From an uncultured Chloroflexia bacterium (GTDB taxonomy: Bacteria; Chloroflexota; Limnocylindria; Limnocylindrales; CSP1-4): a stretch of 64,000 nt of DNA. The notes beneath the pieces are model-generated. The model did no database searches, had not been told where the DNA came from, and was given only the letters and a program-made list of their open reading frames with translations. The translations under genes were made by a program, and so were the position numbers. This document shows positions 4,108 to 28,400 of the stretch, in pieces. How positions within the stretch are numbered: the first letter of the stretch is position 1; every line of letters starts with the position of its first letter. Location of the stretch: the NCBI GenBank assembly GCA_963798955.1, contig CAWCVO010000002.1, forward strand, positions 512,122 through 576,121, written 5' to 3'.

Positions 4108-5547
4108 GTGGGTGGATTCGAGGCGCGGCTGGAGGCTCTCCTGGGCCGGTTCAGCCTGGCGCACATCGGCTTGTTCTTCGTGGCGCTGGCGCTGATCGTG
4201 TACCTCGTCTCCGACCCCACGCGCATCGGTTGGTACAACCACTTCGTCTGGCAAGCGGACGCCTACCTGCACGGCCGCTTCGTGATCTCGTACCCCGTCT
4301 CGAGCGGGCCGTACCAGAACGGCTACCTCAACGATGTGATGCCGCTGCCGGCGGTGCCCGGCCAGCCGAGCTACGGCCTGCTGCCGTTCCCGCCGCTGCC
4401 GGCGGTGCTGCTGCTGCCGTTCGTCGCGGTTTTCGGGCTGGCGACCGACGCGCAACTGTTCGGAGTCGTGCTCGGGGCGATCAACATCGGCCTCACCTGG
4501 CGCATGTTGTCGCGCGTTACGAGCAACCGCGCCGCGGTCTTCATGACCACCCTGTTCTTCGCGTTCGGCACCGCCCACTACTACTCGGCGATGCTCTCGA
4601 CAACGTGGTTCCTGGCCCATGTGGTCGCAACCACCTTCCTGCTCCTTGGTATCACGCTCGCCCTGGACGCGGAGCGACGCGAGCAGTTGCGCGCGGCGCT
4701 GGGGCGCCTCACCGGTGGGCCAGCAGGCATCAGCTCGCAGGTCACACGGCGCGGGACCCTGACTGCGACGTTCGAGGAACGCAGCCTGTTCCTCAACTGG
4801 TTCCGCGTGGCACGGGCGCAGATCGACCCGCTGCAGTTCATGGCCGGCTTCGTCTTTGGCCTCGCCGCGTTGTCGCGCCTCACCACGGTGTTCGGCGCAC
4901 CGTTCTTTGCCCTCGTCGGTGGTGGGGGTTCGTTCTGGAAGCGAGCCTTCTCGTCGGGGCTCGGCGCCATCCTGCCCGGGCTGCTCCTGCTCGCCTACAA
5001 CCTCGCCTCGACCGGACACATCTTCAACCCGGCGTACGACTGGTTGTTTCACACCGAGTACCACGGCTACATGCCGTCGTGGCTGCCGATCGATGAGACC
5101 AAGGGCATCGAGGACATCGCCAACGTGCCGCGCAATGCACTGATCATGTTCGGCTGGATGCCGACCATCAACCCGTCATGCGGCCTGTCGCTGTTCGACA
5201 CGACCTGTGCCCTGATCAGGCCGGACCCAATCGGCATGAGCATCCTGCTGACCAGCCCGGCGTACCTCCTGGGCGTGCCGCTGGCCATGCGCGAGTGGCG
5301 CAACCGGCTGGTCCTCGGTGCGGCCATTGCCACAGTGGCGATCGGGTTTGCCGTGCTGATGAACTTCGGGCCGGGTTGGGTCCAATTCGGCTTCCGGCGC
5401 AGCCTCGACTTCGCGCCCTTCGCACTTATCCTGGTGGCCCTGGCGATGGCCCGCTTCGGCGTGGGCAAAGTCGTGGTCGCACTCGTGGCGTTCTCGATCA
5501 TCGTCAATGCGTGGGGCGTCTATTGGGGCGTGGCGTTGAACTGGTGA
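4108..5547 (+). CDS. Polytopic membrane protein, putative GT-C fold glycosyltransferase
   Basis: ORF 4024..5547. GTG 4108 is preferred because 4024 overlaps the divergent gene start. About 10-12 hydrophobic segments, YNHFVWQADAYLHGR in the first loop and a GWVQFGFRRSLDF C-terminal motif. Confidence 0.6.
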   Translation: MGGFEARLEALLGRFSLAHIGLFFVALALIVYLVSDPTRIGWYNHFVWQADAYLHGRFVISYPVSSGPYQNGYLNDVMPLPAVPGQPSYGLLPFPPLPAVLLLPFVAVFGLATDAQLFGVVLGAINIGLTWRMLSRVTSNRAAVFMTTLFFAFGTAHYYSAMLSTTWFLAHVVATTFLLLGITLALDAERREQLRAALGRLTGGPAGISSQVTRRGTLTATFEERSLFLNWFRVARAQIDPLQFMAGFVFGLAALSRLTTVFGAPFFALVGGGGSFWKRAFSSGLGAILPGLLLLAYNLASTGHIFNPAYDWLFHTEYHGYMPSWLPIDETKGIEDIANVPRNALIMFGWMPTINPSCGLSLFDTTCALIRPDPIGMSILLTSPAYLLGVPLAMREWRNRLVLGAAIATVAIGFAVLMNFGPGWVQFGFRRSLDFAPFALILVALAMARFGVGKVVVALVAFSIIVNAWGVYWGVALNW

Positions 5548-21420: not shown

Positions 21421-21790
21421 TGGTGGAGATGGGGGAGAGTCGAACTCCCCGTCCAGAGCGTTCAGCCGAGAACCACTACGAGCGTGTTCGATGCTTTATC
21501 GTCAATCTGGCGGGCCGCCATCGACAGCGTCCTGCCCGATCCATCCACGTCCCTTGCGGGCTTTGCGACCGATTACGTGGCCTGGCCGATCGCGCATCCC
21601 CGCTGAATGACGCTTCCACAGCCCGCGGGGATGGGGCTGCTTCCACGCTCACTTGGCCGCCTTAGGCGGCGTAGGCGAGAGCAGGCTGGCGGTTGCCAGT
21701 TACTTCGTTTTGCCGTCTGTTTAACGAGGCCTGACGGCACCTCGGCTCGCGTTTCCCGGGGATCCGGCCCTGTCGAAACCACTCATCCCC
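21421..21790 (-). ncRNA. ssrA: tmRNA; tag peptide (A)GNRQPALAYAA at 21697-21662
   Basis: 5' GGGGATGAGTGGTTTCGAC, 3' GGAGTTCGACTCTCCCCCATCTCCACCA, internal GTAACT-GGC AAC CGC CAG CCT GCT CTC GCC TAC GCC GCC TAA. Adjacent to smpB. Confidence 0.96.
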
Positions 21791-21798
21791 AGACCGGC

Positions 21799-21823
21799 AT
21801 TTTACCAGTAGAACACATGTTCG
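21799..21823 (-). promoter_or_regulatory. tmRNA promoter -10 (TAAAAT) with adjacent LexA-type box GAAC-N4-GTTC
   Basis: ATTTTA at 21799-21804 and aGAACacatGTTCg at 21810-21823. Confidence 0.6.
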
Positions 21824-21842
21824 ACAACTGGTCGCTCGTGAT

Positions 21843-22307
21843 CTAACGGCGACCGCGAATAACGTCGGCCAGCTCGCGTTCCACGTCTCGTCGGCTCTGC
21901 CGCTCGGCGATGTCGCGGCGCCGGTCGTGGAGCTGCTTGCCACGCGCCAGGCCGAGCTCAACCTTTGCCCGACCACGGTCGCTGAGGTAGAGCCGCAGGG
22001 GAACCACGGTCAGGCCTTTCGCTGCCGCGCGGCCCATGAGCTGGTCGATCTGCGCCCGATGAAGTAGCAGCTTGCGGTCGCGGCGTGGCTCATGGTTGTA
22101 GCGGTTGCCCTGCTCGAAGGGCGCGATGTGGGCGTTCATCAGCCACGCCTCGCCCCTTTCGACGCGCGCGTAGGCGTCGGCCAGGTTCACCTTTCCGGCG
22201 CGGATGCTCTTGATCTCCGTGCCTGTCAGCACCAGACCGGCCTCGAACGTATCCGTGATGAGGTAGTTGTGGCGCGCCTTGCGGTTGAGCGCCACGGTTT
22301 CGCCCAC
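21843..22307 (-). CDS. smpB: SsrA-binding protein SmpB
   Basis: ALNRKARHNY, EAGLVLTGTEIKSIR, RKLLLHR, GKQLHDRR. AAGGAG lies 8 nt before GTG 22307. Confidence 0.97.
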   Translation of the reverse strand: MGETVALNRKARHNYLITDTFEAGLVLTGTEIKSIRAGKVNLADAYARVERGEAWLMNAHIAPFEQGNRYNHEPRRDRKLLLHRAQIDQLMGRAAAKGLTVVPLRLYLSDRGRAKVELGLARGKQLHDRRRDIAERQSRRDVERELADVIRGRR

Positions 22308-22332
22308 GACATTGACTCCTTCAGACACACGA

Positions 22333-23942: not shown

Positions 23943-24818
23943 TCAGGGGAGCGCGAACGACGACGGCAGGTAGCGGCGGTGATCAATGGTCTGCCTCGTC
24001 GCGCAATAGATCGCTGGCGGCCCGTCGAGGCGCAGACCTGCACGAAGCAGGCTCACGAACGTCGCGCCGGCAGGTCCCGGGACGTTCATGGTCCAGGCCG
24101 GCACTTGCGGCAGCTGCGTCATCAGCCGGCCCACGAATGGCGCCAGGTCGGCCGCGTCGCTGACCACGACCGGGCCCAGGCGGCCGGAAGGCTGTACGTA
24201 GCCATAGCCAACCAGCGTCGGGCCCTGGTAGAGCCCGTAGGGCTGACGCGCCGCCGCTTGCCACCAGTCGTGGTCGAACGGCCGGCGCACGCGGGTCACC
24301 GCCCGGTCCAGAAGCTCCACGCCGTCGCGATACGGAAGTGGGCGGACGTCCAGTCCGCCGCGCAGCGCCGGCAGGTCGGCTGCCGCTCGTCCGGTGAAGG
24401 TGTAGATGGGTACTCGGGGGACCATCCCGTACTGTGCGTAGAGGGCGGCCGAAATGGGCTGGATGGCGAGGATGCACACTGCTCGGTGCTCGGCGCCGGC
24501 CATCGCCCGTTCGAGCAGCGCGCGCCCGATGCCCTTGGCCTGCTGACCGGGAAGGACGAACAGGAAGGACAGGAAAGCGGATCGCCGGTAGCCGATCGCC
24601 TGGCCGAAGCCCACTACGCGATGGCCGATGTGAGCCAGCCAGCCACGATCGGGGCTGACGTCCTGGATGTGGCCGAAGAGGCTCACCAGCGCGTCGCGAT
24701 TGTGGGGCATGAGTGGCATCCCGCGGCTGAGCGTCAGGTCGTCGTCGGCCGCGTAGAGCACGTCAGCGCACTCATCGAGGTCGGCCGCCGTCATCGGACG
24801 GTACTGGGGATCGGTCAC
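23943..24818 (-). CDS. GNAT family N-acetyltransferase
   Basis: LFVLPGQQAKGIGRALL acetyl-CoA motif, ALYAQYGM. Confidence 0.8.
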   Translation of the reverse strand: MTDPQYRPMTAADLDECADVLYAADDDLTLSRGMPLMPHNRDALVSLFGHIQDVSPDRGWLAHIGHRVVGFGQAIGYRRSAFLSFLFVLPGQQAKGIGRALLERAMAGAEHRAVCILAIQPISAALYAQYGMVPRVPIYTFTGRAAADLPALRGGLDVRPLPYRDGVELLDRAVTRVRRPFDHDWWQAAARQPYGLYQGPTLVGYGYVQPSGRLGPVVVSDAADLAPFVGRLMTQLPQVPAWTMNVPGPAGATFVSLLRAGLRLDGPPAIYCATRQTIDHRRYLPSSFALP

Positions 24819-24828
24819 GAGAACCGGG

Positions 24829-25945
24829 TCAGGCGCCGGGAGTCGACGTGTCGGTCGTGGCCACGCGTTCGAGTTCGGCGGTCATGAAGTCGTCGAGGTC
24901 GCCGTCCAGCACGTCCGAGGTCGCGCTCGTTTCGTGCTCGGTGCGGTGGTCCTTGACCATCTGATAGGGATGCAGGACGTAGGAACGGATCTGGTTCCCC
25001 CAGCCCGCTTCGACATGCTCGCCACGCAGGGCAGCAAGCTCGCGCTCGCGCTCCTCGAGGCGCCGCTCGAGCAGACGCGCCCGCAGCACCTTCATGGCGA
25101 ACTCGCGGTTCTGGTGCTGTGATCGTTCGTTCTGGCTCTGGGCGACGATGCCTGTTGGGAGGTGCGTGATGCGGACCGCCGAGTCCGTCTTGTTGACATG
25201 CTGACCGCCGGCGCCCTGTGAGCGGAAAGTGTCGATCTTCAACTCGTCCTCGGGGATTTCCCCGAGCTCGGTGTCATCCGCGACCTCGGGCAGCACCTCG
25301 ACGAGCGCGAACGTGGTGTGACGTCGTTTCTGCGAGTCGTACGGGCTGATGCGCACCAACCGATGCACGCCACGCTCCGCGCGCAGGTAGCCATAGGCCC
25401 GGCGGCCAGCGACGCTGACGGTAACGCTCTTGAGGCCTGCCTCCTCGCCTTCCAGTTGATCCAGGATCTCAGTGGCGAAGTGGTGCCGCTGCGCCCAGCG
25501 CAGGTACATGCGCAACAGCATCTCGGCCCAATCGGTGGCTTCGGTCCCGCCGGCGCCCGCGGTGACGGTCAGGATGGCGTCGTTGTTGTCGTATTCGCCT
25601 GAAAAGAGCAACGCCGAGCGTAAGCCGGCGAACTCGCGCCGGAGCGCCTCGAACTCCTGGTCGATGCCCGTGTCGAGCGAGCCGTCACCTGATTCGACAG
25701 CCAGTTGCGCCAACTCCTCCAGGTCGTGCGCACGCCGGGCGATCGTTCGCCAGGTCGTCACCTCGTCGCGCAATCCCTCGGCACGGCGGAGCACCTGTTG
25801 TGCCGCACGTTGATCGGCCCAGAAGTCGGGTTCGGCGGTTTGAGCGTCGAGCCCGTCCAGCTCGGTTTGCTTGGCGTCTAGGTCAAAGACGCCCCGAGGT
25901 CGCGTCGATCTGCTGAACCAGCTCGCGAACCTGAGCGCTGTCCAT
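24829..25945 (-). CDS. prfB: Peptide chain release factor 2, +1 programmed frameshift at CTT-TGA-C (25888-25882)
   Basis: Frame 1 MDSAQVRELVQQIDATSGRL-TGA, GGGG SD-like upstream, then +1 frame DLDAKQTEL...GAGGTEATDWAEML...GAGGQHVNKT...WGNQIRSY. Confidence 0.95.
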
Positions 25946-26202
25946 CAGTTGGCTACCTCGGCACGCAACGCGATGCCCGAGGCGGCCTTGAGCAGGATTG
26001 GACGCAGCTCGATGATTCGCAGCGCGGTCTTGCTTCGGGCGACGACGGGGTTGACACACGGACAGTATCCGTTGTGCGGACAAACACCGCAGTTGCCGTC
26101 GCAGTCGAGCGTCATTGCATAGCTGCACGTTCGACATTCGCGTTCGCAGGCGATGAGGTCCACGAACGGCTCCTCGAGCACGTCAGCGGCTTTTGCATCC
26201 AC
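25945..26202 (-). CDS. Cys-rich hypothetical microprotein (85 aa, 8 Cys)
   Basis: GAGGGAG upstream of the GTG. CERECRTC-x7-CDGNCGVC-x5-CPC. The stop overlaps the prfB ATG (TGATG). Confidence 0.7.
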   Translation of the reverse strand: MDAKAADVLEEPFVDLIACERECRTCSYAMTLDCDGNCGVCPHNGYCPCVNPVVARSKTALRIIELRPILLKAASGIALRAEVAN

Positions 26203-26384
26203 GACTGGCCAAACTCCCTCTTGGCCAGGGCCACCCTCGACCCCGGGAACGTTTTCACATTCTCCGGAGGAGGCACGGCCTCCGGTGCGGGTATCCCGAG
26301 TATTACAGCCCGCGCAAGTCTGCTCAAGGGGTGAAATGAGCTAAATGGCCGCAAACGCCCATAAATCAGGCGTTTGAGGTCAGA

Positions 26385-27599
26385 TCAGGGCTGTACCGCC
26401 TGCTCTGCGCGGACGGCCGCCGGCGTGAGTTGCTCGGTCAGCAGGCGGAAGAAAAGCTCACGCTGGGCGGCCAGGTCGCCGGCCGACGAGCACCATGCCT
26501 CGAGCAGTGCCTCGCCCCCTGCGTAGCAGAAGACGTACGCACGCCAGAGCGGATGGCTGATGAACTCGAGGTCCTTGGCCGACTGCTCCTCCGTTCGCAG
26601 TGCCTCGCTCTCCAGCCAGCGCCGGACCTCATCCGCGGGCCTGTGCTCGACGTGGAGCAACAGCGCGGCATCACCGCCGCTGGCGCGCAAACCATGGAGC
26701 GCGCGATCGATCTGCCACTCGTCGCGCGCGCGTTGAGGCGACATGTCGATGCCCGCCCGTAGCGCAAGCGCAAGGAGCAGCTCCTGCCACTCCCCCTCGT
26801 CGAGCACGTACTGTTTGCCGAGCTCGGCCAAACCCTCGCTGATGAAGGCCTCCGGCGTGTTGATCAGTTGAACCGACGCCTCGGCACGGCCCTGCTCGCG
26901 GACCAGTCGCTGTTCCTTCCAGGCGTGCTCCAGGTGGTGCCCGGGGTATGCCTCGTGGGTGAGCAGTCCGGCGAGACTGGTCACGCGTACGGGCAGGTCG
27001 GTATTGATCTCGATGCGCGAGTGGAGATCACCGTCGTACCAGTTGTAGGCCGCCCACGGCTCGTCGCTGACGAGCGCGACGCTGAGCGACTCGCCGGTCG
27101 GTTGCGGAAAGAAACGGCGACATCGGGCGCCGATGTCGGCCAATGCGAATTCGACTACTTCCGCAAGGCGCTCGCGCGGGATGGCCAGGCTTTCGTCGCG
27201 TTGCGCGAGGCGCGAGCGCAGATCGCGGCCCGCCGGCAGCAGCGCAGCGAGCTCGGCTCGCACGCGCGCATAATCGGCCGCCGGGGTCAGCGCCGGCGCG
27301 GTCTGGAAACACAGCTCGACCTCGTCGAGATAGTCGATCTCCTCGCCGGCCAGGCGGCGCAGGATCGTCTCGAGCGCAACCAGCTGCGCCGTCAGCCAGG
27401 CGGCGCGCTGGCCAGTCGCCTCGATGGCCACGCGCTCGCGCAGTTCCCGCGCGCGCCGCGCGAGCTCGGCGGCGCCGATCTCTCGGCGCGCGGCGACCTC
27501 CGTGAGCTCCGCCGGCCCGTAGTACGCATCGACGACACCTTCCTGCAGACGACCTGCCGCGAGCGCGGTCAGCAGGTATTCACGAGCGAGGTCGTCCAT
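26385..27599 (-). CDS. DUF885-like putative zinc metallopeptidase
   Basis: THEAYPGHHLE zincin-like motif, ISEGLAE, YVFCYAGG. Confidence 0.7.
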   Translation of the reverse strand: MDDLAREYLLTALAAGRLQEGVVDAYYGPAELTEVAARREIGAAELARRARELRERVAIEATGQRAAWLTAQLVALETILRRLAGEEIDYLDEVELCFQTAPALTPAADYARVRAELAALLPAGRDLRSRLAQRDESLAIPRERLAEVVEFALADIGARCRRFFPQPTGESLSVALVSDEPWAAYNWYDGDLHSRIEINTDLPVRVTSLAGLLTHEAYPGHHLEHAWKEQRLVREQGRAEASVQLINTPEAFISEGLAELGKQYVLDEGEWQELLLALALRAGIDMSPQRARDEWQIDRALHGLRASGGDAALLLHVEHRPADEVRRWLESEALRTEEQSAKDLEFISHPLWRAYVFCYAGGEALLEAWCSSAGDLAAQRELFFRLLTEQLTPAAVRAEQAVQP

Positions 27600-27602
27600 G
27601 GA

Positions 27603-28400
27603 TCAGGCAGCGTCCAGCAGTCGCGCGCGCAGATCGAGCAGCTGCTCGCTCGACACGCCGGCGTCGAGCAGGTAGCGCTCGGCCGAGCCATACCTGGCGC
27701 GCATGTATTCCAGGGTGTCGAGCATCGCCTCGGGGCGCGGCCGGGCCAGCGCGCGCAGCCGCTCGCGCTCCACCTCCTGGTTGCTCATGGCGTCGAGCCA
27801 GTCGCTGATCAGGGGCTCGAAGTTGCGCGCCGTCAGCGCGTAGTCCTCGGCAATCTCGCGGTCGGCGACGCCGATTAGCGCCAGGCAAATGGCCACGATC
27901 ATGCCGGTGCGGTCCTTGCCGGCGTGGCAATGGATCAGAACGCCACCCGCTCGGGCGTCGGCCACCGCCGCCACGATTGCGCCGATGCCGCGCGTGTTGG
28001 CGTCGAGATCGATCCGGTTCAACTCCTCGCGGCTCTGGGCGGCCCGGTAGGCAGCGCTGACTTCCGCCCACGCCCGCTCGTCATGACCCAGCGTGAACGG
28101 CAGGTTCCGGTAGTCGACCACCGGCGGAGCAGCACCGGCGATGCCGTCGCTGCGGAAGGGATAGAGCTGCCAATCACGGGCCACCTCATCGGCACTGCGC
28201 ACGTCGACGATCGTGCCAACACCGTGATCGATCATTGCGCGCCGGCCGGCCGGGGTCAGCCGGATGAGTACATCAGAGCGAATGAGCGCGCCGCGTCTGA
28301 CATGACCGGCGGGCGTGGCGAGGCCGCCCAGGTCGCGGGCGTTGTAGCAAGCCTCCCAGGCAAGGATGCGGTCGGCGGGAGCGAGACTCGCAGCGGCCAC
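27603..28400 (-). CDS. Tyrosine/dual-specificity phosphatase (Y_phosphatase3)
   Basis: YNARDLGG, IVDVRS, HCHAGKDRTG P-loop, IAEDYALT. Confidence 0.9.
   Translation of the reverse strand: MAAASLAPADRILAWEACYNARDLGGLATPAGHVRRGALIRSDVLIRLTPAGRRAMIDHGVGTIVDVRSADEVARDWQLYPFRSDGIAGAAPPVVDYRNLPFTLGHDERAWAEVSAAYRAAQSREELNRIDLDANTRGIGAIVAAVADARAGGVLIHCHAGKDRTGMIVAICLALIGVADREIAEDYALTARNFEPLISDWLDAMSNQEVERERLRALARPRPEAMLDTLEYMRARYGSAERYLLDAGVSSEQLLDLRARLLDAA

What the first reader, a model, noticed from the sequence alone, without database searches (positions are those of the whole stretch)
25945..26202. Twin CX3CX2C 8-cysteine microprotein translationally coupled to release factor 2
Seen: an 85-aa ORF with its own SD whose TGA overlaps the prfB ATG (TGATG). 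It contains CERECRTC and CDGNCGVC (two CX3CX2C motifs) plus CPC within ~31 residues. Established: CX3CX2C is the [4Fe-4S]-binding spacing of radical SAM enzymes, but this protein is far too short for that fold. prfB normally follows secA directly and is autoregulated by a UGA frameshift. Inference: an undescribed Fe-S/Zn microprotein that heads the prfB operon and could link metal, redox or cysteine status to RF2 level. Its own UGA stop is read by RF2 and could add a second feedback layer through translational coupling.
Basis: partly seen in the sequence, partly recalled or inferred. Interest (0 to 1): 0.72.

Follow-up and report, generated by a model that had tools for sequence, protein, structure and literature searches.

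The report
Eight-cysteine microprotein gene fused to prfB
A small, very strongly conserved protein with eight cysteines is encoded immediately in front of the release factor 2 gene in nearly all members of one uncultured soil bacterial class; it belongs to no described family and its role in translation termination is still unproven.

Summary
Window 25945-26202 (- strand) is an 85-aa GTG-started ORF. Its TGA overlaps the prfB ATG (TGATG). It carries C-x3-C-x2-C twice plus C-P-C, eight Cys in 31 residues. It is a real gene: third codon positions vary in 41 of 60 codons against 12 and 5, and pN/pS is about 0.08.

The family is confined to Chloroflexota class Limnocylindria. It was found in 272 of 301 class genomes and in 0 of 355 genomes of other Chloroflexota families. 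It is also missing from the small-genome family f2, where secA abuts prfB directly. All eight Cys are invariant. The Cys knot is more conserved than RF2 itself.

In 130 of 132 unique loci the gene sits directly before frameshift-regulated prfB. The prfB Shine-Dalgarno and start codon lie inside or against its 3' end, and conserved promoter-like boxes lie upstream.

No Pfam, NCBIfam, PDB, PHROGs or PADLOC match was found, and structure prediction failed.

Function is inferred only. I favour a metal-binding partner of RF2 or the ribosome (about 0.35). The rivals are a CruR-like sensing uORF and an unrelated metal protein locked in place by overlapping signals.

The parts
26299..26327 (-). Promoter-like boxes: -35 TTGAGC (26327-26322), a 17-nt spacer, and -10 AATACT (26304-26299)
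   Evidence: Read. Both boxes fall in the only invariant upstream blocks of a 25-locus alignment of family f1 (CTTGAG/CTTGGC and [CT]ATACT). The tool's consensus scan found 0 sites at its 9-of-12 threshold; this site scores 8 of 12.
26264..26285 (-). 5' leader hairpin: CCGGAGG, 8-nt loop, CCTCCGG
   Evidence: Read. The sequence GAGGCCGTGCCTCCTCCGG is near-invariant in the genus and its nearest genera. No Rfam match. Function unknown.
26214..26222 (-). Shine-Dalgarno AAGAGGGAG of the microprotein gene, 11 nt before the GTG
   Evidence: The GAGGGA block and the GTG are conserved in the upstream alignment.
25945..26202 (-). Microprotein gene, 85 aa (P0001), GTG start, TGA stop at 25947-25945
   Evidence: Purifying selection. 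Homologues.
26056..26148 (-). Cys8 knot, residues 19-49: C-x3-C-x2-C-x7-C-x3-C-x2-C-x5-C-x-C
   Evidence: C19, C23, C26, C34, C38, C41, C47 and C49 are invariant, together with E20, Y28, L32, D35, G36 and P48, in 18 sequences of three subfamilies.
25955..25959 (-). GAGGT, the likely prfB Shine-Dalgarno, inside the microprotein's last codons and 9 nt before the prfB ATG
   Evidence: Read. In other genera the terminal Arg-Asn codons (AGG AAC) take this place. Inference.
25883..25945 (-). prfB ORF0: ATG 25945-25943 through CTT 25888-25886, then in-frame TGA 25885-25883. The frameshift site is CTT TGA C.
   Evidence: ORF0 peptides of the type M[DE]xxxxR[DE]L...TSGRL are conserved in the loci.
24829..25884 (-). 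prfB ORF1 (RF2 body, 351 aa plus stop)
   Evidence: TIGR00020 prfB 451 bits; PCRF and RF-1 domains.

Best explanation
Shown. This is a genuine gene for a 65-85-aa protein of a new family restricted to Limnocylindria. Its core is a 31-residue knot of eight invariant cysteines followed by a conserved helix-prone segment. It is the first gene of a microprotein-prfB unit with its own promoter-like boxes. The prfB ribosome-binding site and start codon lie inside or against its 3' end.

Inferred, step 1. The protein has no signal peptide or membrane segment and carries eight invariant thiols, so it probably folds around metal. Two Zn(Cys)4 sites or Fe-S clusters are both possible. The 3+3+2 Cys layout fits two tetrahedral sites.

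Inferred, step 2. Ribosomes finishing the microprotein gene reinitiate on prfB ORF0. The two products would then be started in a fixed ratio, upstream of the RF2 frameshift checkpoint.

Inferred, step 3, the commitment. The finished microprotein acts in trans with RF2 or the terminating ribosome, as an accessory or modulator of termination. It is not merely a leader peptide.

The confidence of 0.35 refers to step 3. The gene, the family and the linkage I hold at more than 0.9, metal binding at about 0.8, and coupled translation at about 0.7.
For: Real coding gene: codon-position variation of 12/5/41 in 60 codons and pN/pS of 0.036/0.446.

Distribution: 272 of 301 class genomes. By family, f1 91/91, f3 83/92, f4 96/103, f5 1/2.

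Linkage: 130 of 132 unique loci have the prfB frameshift motif just downstream. The junctions are TAGGTG in 36, TGATGG in 22, TAGTGG in 17 and TAAGGA in 12; for the TAAGGA class a 14-nt overlap was read in 8 of the 10 f4 loci. Meanwhile the genes between secA and the microprotein gene, and those downstream of prfB, come and go. In 72 loci longer than 6 kb the counts were microprotein 72, RF2 72, secA 71, GNAT 56, ctp 17, u404 16, smpB 14 and PTP 8.

Conservation: the knot was more conserved than RF2 in 99.7% of 1500 sampled locus pairs. The stretch from the knot to the stop was more conserved in 76%.

Sequence, not only translation, is selected: all eight Cys and six other residues are invariant across subfamilies.

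Upstream signals: conserved promoter-like boxes and SD.

Weak hint of expression: contigs from soil RNA libraries cover 25935-26223 at 99% identity or better.
Against: No direct evidence of binding to RF2 or ribosomes.

The RF2 sequences of microprotein-bearing lineages show no signature of their own. Of 120 columns at least 95% conserved in them, 10 changed in all five f2 RF2s. At each of those columns the conserved residue is also the commonest one in 16 other Chloroflexota RF2s that have no microprotein.

Family f2 lost the gene yet keeps frameshift-regulated prfB, so the microprotein is dispensable for RF2 function and autoregulation.

Strict adjacency could be entrenchment, because the prfB start signals lie inside the gene.

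The fold is unknown (pLDDT 47.7 and 48.7), and the metal is unknown.
Confidence: 0.35

Rival explanations
1. Cis-acting sensing upstream ORF. The microprotein, nascent or just finished, perceives a metal, redox state or cysteine supply through its thiols. This changes how many ribosomes or transcripts reach prfB, in the manner of CruR.
For: The position is exactly that of a uORF, with the prfB SD and start embedded in its 3' end. CruR of Bordetella is a precedent: a uORF-encoded protein with a conserved CXXC motif that senses copper and controls the downstream genes (PMC9426467; title, abstract and section list read). Loss in the streamlined f2 genomes fits the loss of a regulator.
Against: The last 6-14 residues are the least conserved part and vary in length. 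No RAPP-type arrest motif is visible in the alignments. No conserved RNA structure was found at the junction (alifold energy -2.4; the window's own fold has z of -1.5). About 60 residues are conserved, more than a sensing motif would need. No Pfam hit at all, so none to DUF2946. No rationale links RF2 dosage to a metal.
Confidence: 0.22
2. Unrelated small metal or redox protein, such as a zinc or Fe-S carrier, a thiol buffer or a metallothionein-like protein. It was inserted between secA and prfB in the class ancestor and is now held there only because the prfB start signals came to lie inside it.
For: Eight cysteines in 31 residues with no other recognisable feature. The ancestral secA-prfB arrangement is seen in f2. 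Embedded prfB signals make separation costly. No RF2 signature specific to microprotein-bearing lineages.
Against: Residues other than Cys are conserved more than RF2, which is unlike the fast-evolving metallothioneins I recall. One copy per genome, with matches = 1 in nearly all genomes. Neighbouring genes turned over around it, yet it was never found elsewhere in 132 loci.
Confidence: 0.28
3. One reading: the microprotein's own UGA stop is decoded by RF2, so low RF2 stalls ribosomes on TGATG. This adds a second autoregulatory layer to the frameshift.
For: In this window and in 22 of 132 loci the junction is TGATGG. TGA is the stop in 38 of 132 and in 15 of 20 loci of the window's genus.
Against: The stop is TAG, read by RF1 only, in 78 of 132 loci and TAA in 16. 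This cannot be the conserved reason for the gene or for its position.
Confidence: 0.05
4. Not a gene: a chance ORF in GC-rich DNA, or a conserved RNA element read as protein.
For: GC-rich DNA carries many long chance ORFs (85 ORFs of at least 50 aa in 12 kb).
Against: Third-position variation and a low pN/pS. Synonymous TGC/TGT use at every Cys. No Rfam match. 520 homologous proteins.
Confidence: 0.01

Closest known systems
CruR (DUF2946), the copper-responsive upstream regulator of Bordetella (PMC9426467; title, abstract and section list read)
   Same: A small protein encoded as the first gene of an operon, with conserved cysteines, placed so that its translation governs access to the downstream gene.
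   Different: No sequence relation (no Pfam hit). No RAPP arrest motif. Eight Cys rather than one CXXC. The downstream gene is a translation factor rather than a metal transporter. No metal response has been shown.
ArfA, BrfA and ArfT, the small RF2-recruiting ribosome rescue factors (BrfA: PMC6881298, search listing and start of abstract seen; ArfA and ArfT details recalled)
   Same: Lineage-specific proteins of about 55-75 aa whose only known partners are RF2 and the ribosome. The own genome shows no ArfA, and no ArfB above the family cut-off.
   Different: Those factors have no cysteine knot. As I recall, they are made from non-stop mRNAs so that tmRNA represses them. This gene has a normal stop and is coupled to prfB. 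ArfA Pfam model: no match. SmpB and tmRNA are present nearby.
Radical SAM CX3CX2C and clostridial-type 2x[4Fe-4S] ferredoxin motifs (recalled)
   Same: The C-x3-C-x2-C spacing occurs twice. A Cys-Pro pair follows the second motif, as in the CP of ferredoxins. Eight Cys could ligate two cubanes.
   Different: The protein is far too short for a radical SAM barrel. The ferredoxin spacing is C-x2-C-x2-C-x3-C-P. No Pfam Radical_SAM or Fer4 hit.
Trm112, the small zinc-binding activator of the eRF1/RF methyltransferase Mtq2 (recalled)
   Same: A small Cys4 zinc protein functionally tied to release-factor biology.
   Different: No Pfam Trm112p hit. No methyltransferase gene in the conserved neighbourhood. 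This is an analogy only.

Membership tests
Radical SAM superfamily | CX3CX2C inside a partial TIM barrel of about 200 aa or more, recognised by the Pfam Radical_SAM model | tested here: not met
   The motif is present twice. The protein is 85 aa and has no Pfam hit at E up to 0.1, or up to 1 for 18 members.
2x[4Fe-4S] ferredoxin (Fer4) | Two CX2CX2CX3CP motifs and a Fer4 profile match | tested here: not met
   The spacing is CX3CX2C. No Fer4 hit.
CruR / DUF2946 sensing uORF | DUF2946 profile match | tested here: not met
   No Pfam hit.
CruR / DUF2946 sensing uORF | Conserved CXXC plus a C-terminal RAPP arrest motif (abstract of PMC9426467) | tested here: not met
   CXXC pairs are present (C23/C26 and C38/C41). 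No RAPP appears in any aligned member, and the C-terminus is variable.
CruR / DUF2946 sensing uORF | Metal-dependent control of the downstream gene | not testable with these tools
   Needs reporter assays.
ArfA-type RF2-dependent rescue factor | ArfA profile match | tested here: not met
   PF03889 has no match in the own genome or in the protein.
ArfA-type RF2-dependent rescue factor | Made from a non-stop mRNA, so that the active protein appears only when tmRNA fails (recalled) | tested here: not met
   The ORF ends in a normal stop in 132 of 132 unique loci. No terminator-like site was found inside it.
ArfA-type RF2-dependent rescue factor | Recruits RF2 to ribosomes with an empty A site | not testable with these tools
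   Needs in vitro release assays.
Translationally coupled gene pair (termination-reinitiation) | The stop of gene 1 overlaps or abuts the start of gene 2, and the SD of gene 2 lies within gene 1 | tested here: met
   TGATG in the window with GAGGT 9 nt upstream. Junction classes over 132 unique loci; gaps from -14 to +62 nt read in the loci.
Translationally coupled gene pair (termination-reinitiation) | Expression of gene 2 depends on translation of gene 1 | not testable with these tools
   Needs reporter fusions. No conserved sequestering RNA structure was seen.
Metal-binding Cys-knot protein (generic zinc or Fe-S microprotein) | Invariant cysteines in sets of four in a protein with no export signal | tested here: met
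   Eight invariant Cys. The N-terminus is acidic and variable, with no hydrophobic stretch. The metal itself is not testable here.

The most novel reading that the evidence does not exclude
The microprotein is a lineage-specific, metal- or redox-switched accessory factor of RF2. It would be made in step with RF2 and would dock on RF2 or the terminating ribosome. There it could license stop-codon-independent release, giving an ArfA/BrfA-like backup to tmRNA in a class with no recognisable ArfA or ArfB. Alternatively it could tune UGA termination and the prfB frameshift according to thiol or metal state. That would be a new class of termination factor built on a Cys8 knot.
Probability: 0.12. Interest if true: 0.8.

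Novelty: new variant of a known kind. Interest (0 to 1): 0.52.

Why it matters
Release factor 2 and its frameshift autoregulation are textbook material, and no cysteine-knot partner or upstream gene for prfB turned up in the full-text searches run here (which cover open-access papers and preprints only).

A protein that is more conserved than RF2, glued to prfB across a whole class and absent everywhere else sampled points to one of three things. It could be an undiscovered accessory of termination or ribosome rescue. It could be a new metal- or redox-sensing uORF controlling a core translation factor. Or it could be a clear case of a gene entrenched by overlapping start signals. Each is testable by heterologous expression, although the host class appears here only as metagenome-assembled genomes.

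The finding also defines a new protein family, which could be registered as a domain of unknown function.

Tried and rejected
Structure. AlphaFold2 on two alignments gave mean pLDDT of 47.7 and 48.7. That is too low for any fold search, so none was run.

Complex. The microprotein plus RF2 ORF1 plus two Zn gave a score of 0.00 and the verdict 'no answer'. This is neither support nor evidence against. Four earlier hand-ins met a full queue.

Protein atlas. Nothing usable for the whole protein or for residues 13-72.

PDB sequence search. Only a chance profilin hit at E 1.9.

Rfam. No match in 24500-27000.

Consensus scan. 0 promoters and 0 terminators in 25800-26500. The conserved boxes score 8 of 12, below its threshold.

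Junction RNA structure. Not conserved.

Apparent in-frame fusion of the microprotein to prfB ORF0 in L124. It comes from a single extra base relative to its nearest relatives. The record is a MAG, so I treat this as a probable assembly error and not as a Rosetta-stone fusion. Long hits (P0133, P0129, P0149, P0150, P0173) are read-throughs or spurious N-terminal extensions, not domain fusions.

Context of the low-GC outlier P0179. One metagenome scan found no locus.

Upstream of prfB in other Chloroflexota. Of 17 loci, RF2 could be located by my script in 11. None of these had a Cys-knot ORF.

RF2 signature. No signature specific to microprotein-bearing lineages.

Weak matches in f2. The single-protein hits at E 0.004-0.006 were not reproduced with profiles: 0/12 and 0/4.

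RNA-library contigs. They show the sequence is present in RNA libraries, not that it is transcribed. Two of the four runs look like duplicates of the other two.

Full report
**1. The observation**

On the - strand, window 25945-26202 is an 85-aa ORF (P0001) that starts at GTG 26202-26200. AAGAGGGAG lies 11 nt upstream. Its stop, TGA 25947-25945, shares its A with the ATG (25945-25943) of a 20-codon ORF0. ORF0 ends in CTT TGA C (25888-25882), the classical +1 frameshift site of prfB. The frame entered after the shift (24829-25884) scores 451 bits on TIGR00020 prfB and carries the PCRF and RF-1 domains.

The peptide contains CERECRTC, CDGNCGVC and CPC. These are eight Cys between residues 19 and 49.

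**2. Is it a gene?**

The DNA is GC-rich and full of chance ORFs: 85 ORFs of at least 50 aa in 12 kb. The ORF alone therefore proves nothing. Four results settle the question.
- In 20 loci from genomes of the same genus, the 60 core codons have variable columns at codon positions 1/2/3 of 12/5/41. Mean pairwise pN is 0.036 against pS of 0.446.
- Both Cys codons are used at each of the eight Cys positions across 132 unique loci.
- There is no Rfam match.
- Selection is thus on the protein, not on an RNA.

**3. How widely it occurs**

- A word-indexed search of 5.8 billion proteins gave 520 hits. All named hits are 'hypothetical protein' and none has a Pfam domain.
- An exhaustive profile search of 1.84 billion cluster representatives gave only 64 clusters.
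- Record titles of 80 genome loci place them in Chloroflexota, mostly labelled Candidatus Limnocylindria or Limnocylindrales. One is labelled Alphaproteobacteria, which I take to be a binning label.
- In the held genomes the family is in 272 of 301 genomes of the class: f1 91/91, f3 83/92, f4 96/103, f5 1/2. Among genomes at least 90% complete it is in 147 of 154.
- A phylum-wide draw found it in 42 of 401 genomes. Apart from the window's own genome, all 41 hits were in f1, f3 and f4, and there were none in the 355 genomes of other families.
- Family f2, with genomes of about 1.1 Mb in the same order as f1, lacks it: 0/12 and 0/4.
- In 5 of 5 f2 genomes examined, secA is followed after a short spacer by prfB, which still has its CTTTGAC site.

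The simplest history is one gain between secA and prfB in the class ancestor and one loss in the streamlined f2.

These tallies include unpublished genomes: G004, twelve handles and G360. No statement depends on them alone. The protein-level content of L020 (G004) is identical to that of the public record L072.

**4. Anatomy of the protein**

Three subfamilies align over the knot.
- The f1 type is FVDLIACERECRTCSYA..LDCDGNCGVCPHNGYCPCVNPVVARSKTALRIIELRPILLQ.
- The f4 type is YEDLI.CERDCMRCSYA.TLDCDGNCG.CPRQ.YCPCVNPAK.RSK.
- The f3 type is MKEWIVCEDNCLKCSYGATLDCDGDCPRCPRNTYCPCVTFVSF.
- Invariant positions are C19, C23, C26, C34, C38, C41, C47 and C49, plus E20, Y28, L32, D35, G36 and P48.
- The N-terminus is short, acidic and variable, and the last 6-14 residues vary in sequence and length.
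- There is no hydrophobic leader.

Eight invariant thiols in a protein without an export signal argue for metal binding. The 3+3+2 pattern fits two four-Cys sites. Whether these hold zinc or iron-sulfur clusters cannot be decided here.

The i, i+4, i+7 spacing would put each triad on one face of a helix. That is only a reading of the spacing, because both AlphaFold2 runs failed (pLDDT 47.7 and 48.7).

No match was found in Pfam, NCBIfam, PHROGs, PADLOC, PDB sequences or the protein atlas.

**5. Linkage to prfB**

- Of 132 unique loci, 130 carry CTTTGA[CT] within 400 nt downstream. One exception sits at a contig end, and the other has a disrupted frame.
- The commonest junctions are TAGGTG (36 loci), TGATGG (22), TAGTGG (17) and TAAGGA (12). 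For the TAAGGA class, a TTG start of prfB 14 nt inside the microprotein gene was read in 8 of the 10 f4 loci.
- Gaps in the loci run from -14 to +62 nt.
- In the window, GAGGT lies 9 nt before the prfB ATG, within the codons for the microprotein's tail. In most other genera the terminal Arg-Asn codons (AGG AAC) occupy that place. I read this as the reason the tail varies.
- Upstream, an alignment of 25 f1 loci shows only a few conserved blocks: CTTGAG or CTTGGC, then 17-18 nt later [CT]ATACT, and then the GAGGGA and GTG of the start region.
- In the window these blocks are TTGAGC (26327-26322) and AATACT (26304-26299). The tool's stricter consensus scan reports nothing.
- There is no room for a separate prfB promoter in most loci.
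- The wider neighbourhood is fluid. In 72 loci longer than 6 kb, secA is present in 71. The tyrosine phosphatase and the 404-aa protein that separate secA from the microprotein gene in the window occur in only 8 and 16. A different ORF fills that space in other genera, for example L079.

The microprotein gene and prfB therefore behave as one unit, while everything around them turns over.

**6. Degree of conservation**

Among 105 loci with distinct RF2 sequences, 1500 sampled pairs were compared.
- The 43-residue knot was more conserved than RF2 in 99.7% of pairs.
- The stretch from the knot to the stop was more conserved in 76% of pairs.
- Where RF2 identity is 60-70%, the knot averages 87%.
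- Between families the C-terminal half diverges: 49% against 56% for RF2.

**7. What it most likely does**

The shown facts are a folded-looking, probably metal-binding protein, made from the same message as RF2, with signals arranged for termination-reinitiation. Function has to be inferred.

I favour, at about 0.35, a trans-acting role with RF2 or the terminating ribosome. The reasons are that overlapping, coupled genes often encode partners, that nearly every residue is constrained more tightly than in RF2, and that the pair is never separated.

Several results count against this.
- There is no binding evidence.
- f2 does without the gene.
- RF2 carries no signature specific to microprotein-bearing lineages. 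Ten of 120 conserved columns changed in f2. In each case the conserved residue is shared with Chloroflexota that never had the gene.

Rival one, at about 0.22, is a sensing uORF in the manner of CruR (PMC9426467, abstract read). It is weakened by the variable C-terminus, the lack of an arrest motif and the lack of conserved junction structure.

Rival two, at about 0.28, is an unrelated metal or redox protein entrenched by the prfB signals inside it.

It might still operate in the window's own genus, where 15 of 20 loci use TGA.

**8. Context relevant to the boldest reading**

smpB (21843-22328) and tmRNA (21421-21790, tag GNRQPALAYAA) lie downstream on the same strand. The 90.5%-complete genome shows no ArfA. 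The ArfB model hits only RF2 and a second release-factor-like frame, both below its cut-off.

Small RF2-recruiting rescue factors are known to be lineage-specific (BrfA paper PMC6881298, listing and start of abstract seen). A rescue or modulator role is therefore not excluded. Nothing here tests it, however, and the gene lacks the non-stop-mRNA design that I recall for those factors.

**9. Expression**

Two short contigs from soil RNA libraries match at 99-100% identity. One is 262 nt and covers 25935-26196. The other is 198 nt and covers 26026-26223, reaching 21 nt upstream of the GTG. The four runs look like two data sets filed twice, and DNA carry-over cannot be excluded. This is a weak hint only.

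**10. Verdict**

This is a new, class-restricted protein family with a striking and conserved coupling to prfB, and its biochemical role is open.

No full-text search retrieved a description of it: prfB, cysteine-rich, small protein, upstream; Limnocylindria; prfB, secA, operon, uORF, coupling. These searches cover open-access papers and preprints only.

Noticed in passing
window 26264-26285 (-): A 7-bp hairpin (CCGGAGG, loop, CCTCCGG) sits near the predicted 5' end of the microprotein-prfB message. It is near-invariant in the genus and its nearest genera. It pairs an SD-like GGAGG with an anti-SD-like CCUCC. It may be an mRNA-stabilising or translation-tuning element. No Rfam match.
   Followed up: partly
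window 21421-22328 (-): smpB (21843-22328) and tmRNA (21421-21790, tag peptide GNRQPALAYAA) lie on the same strand downstream of prfB, a GNAT gene and an S41 C-terminal processing peptidase. Termination and ribosome-rescue genes are thus clustered.
   Followed up: partly
L151-L155 (family f2 genomes G025-G029): The ~1.1-Mb genomes of the sister family lack the microprotein gene. They have secA followed directly by frameshift-regulated prfB. Their RF2 has changed at 10 of the 120 columns that are conserved in the rest of the class.
   Followed up: yes
L124, about 4190-4272: One extra base puts the microprotein ORF in frame with prfB ORF0. After the frameshift this would give a microprotein-RF2 fusion. 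It is probably an assembly error in a MAG, but worth checking in raw reads.
   Followed up: partly
window 26385-27599 (-) and 27603-28400 (-): A 404-aa protein with no family match (only DUF885 at E 0.059) and a Y_phosphatase3 tyrosine phosphatase are inserted between secA and the microprotein gene. They were found in only 16 and 8 of 72 loci respectively.
   Followed up: no
window 23943-24818 (-): A 291-aa GNAT acetyltransferase follows prfB in 56 of 72 loci. It has faint similarity to RimI (E 0.0026, far below the cut-off). It could be a further member of the unit.
   Followed up: no
P0179 (66 aa): A low-GC-looking outlier keeps all eight Cys but has a lysine-rich tail. Its genomic context could not be retrieved, so it is unknown whether the family reaches beyond the sampled Limnocylindria or keeps the prfB linkage there.
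   Followed up: partly
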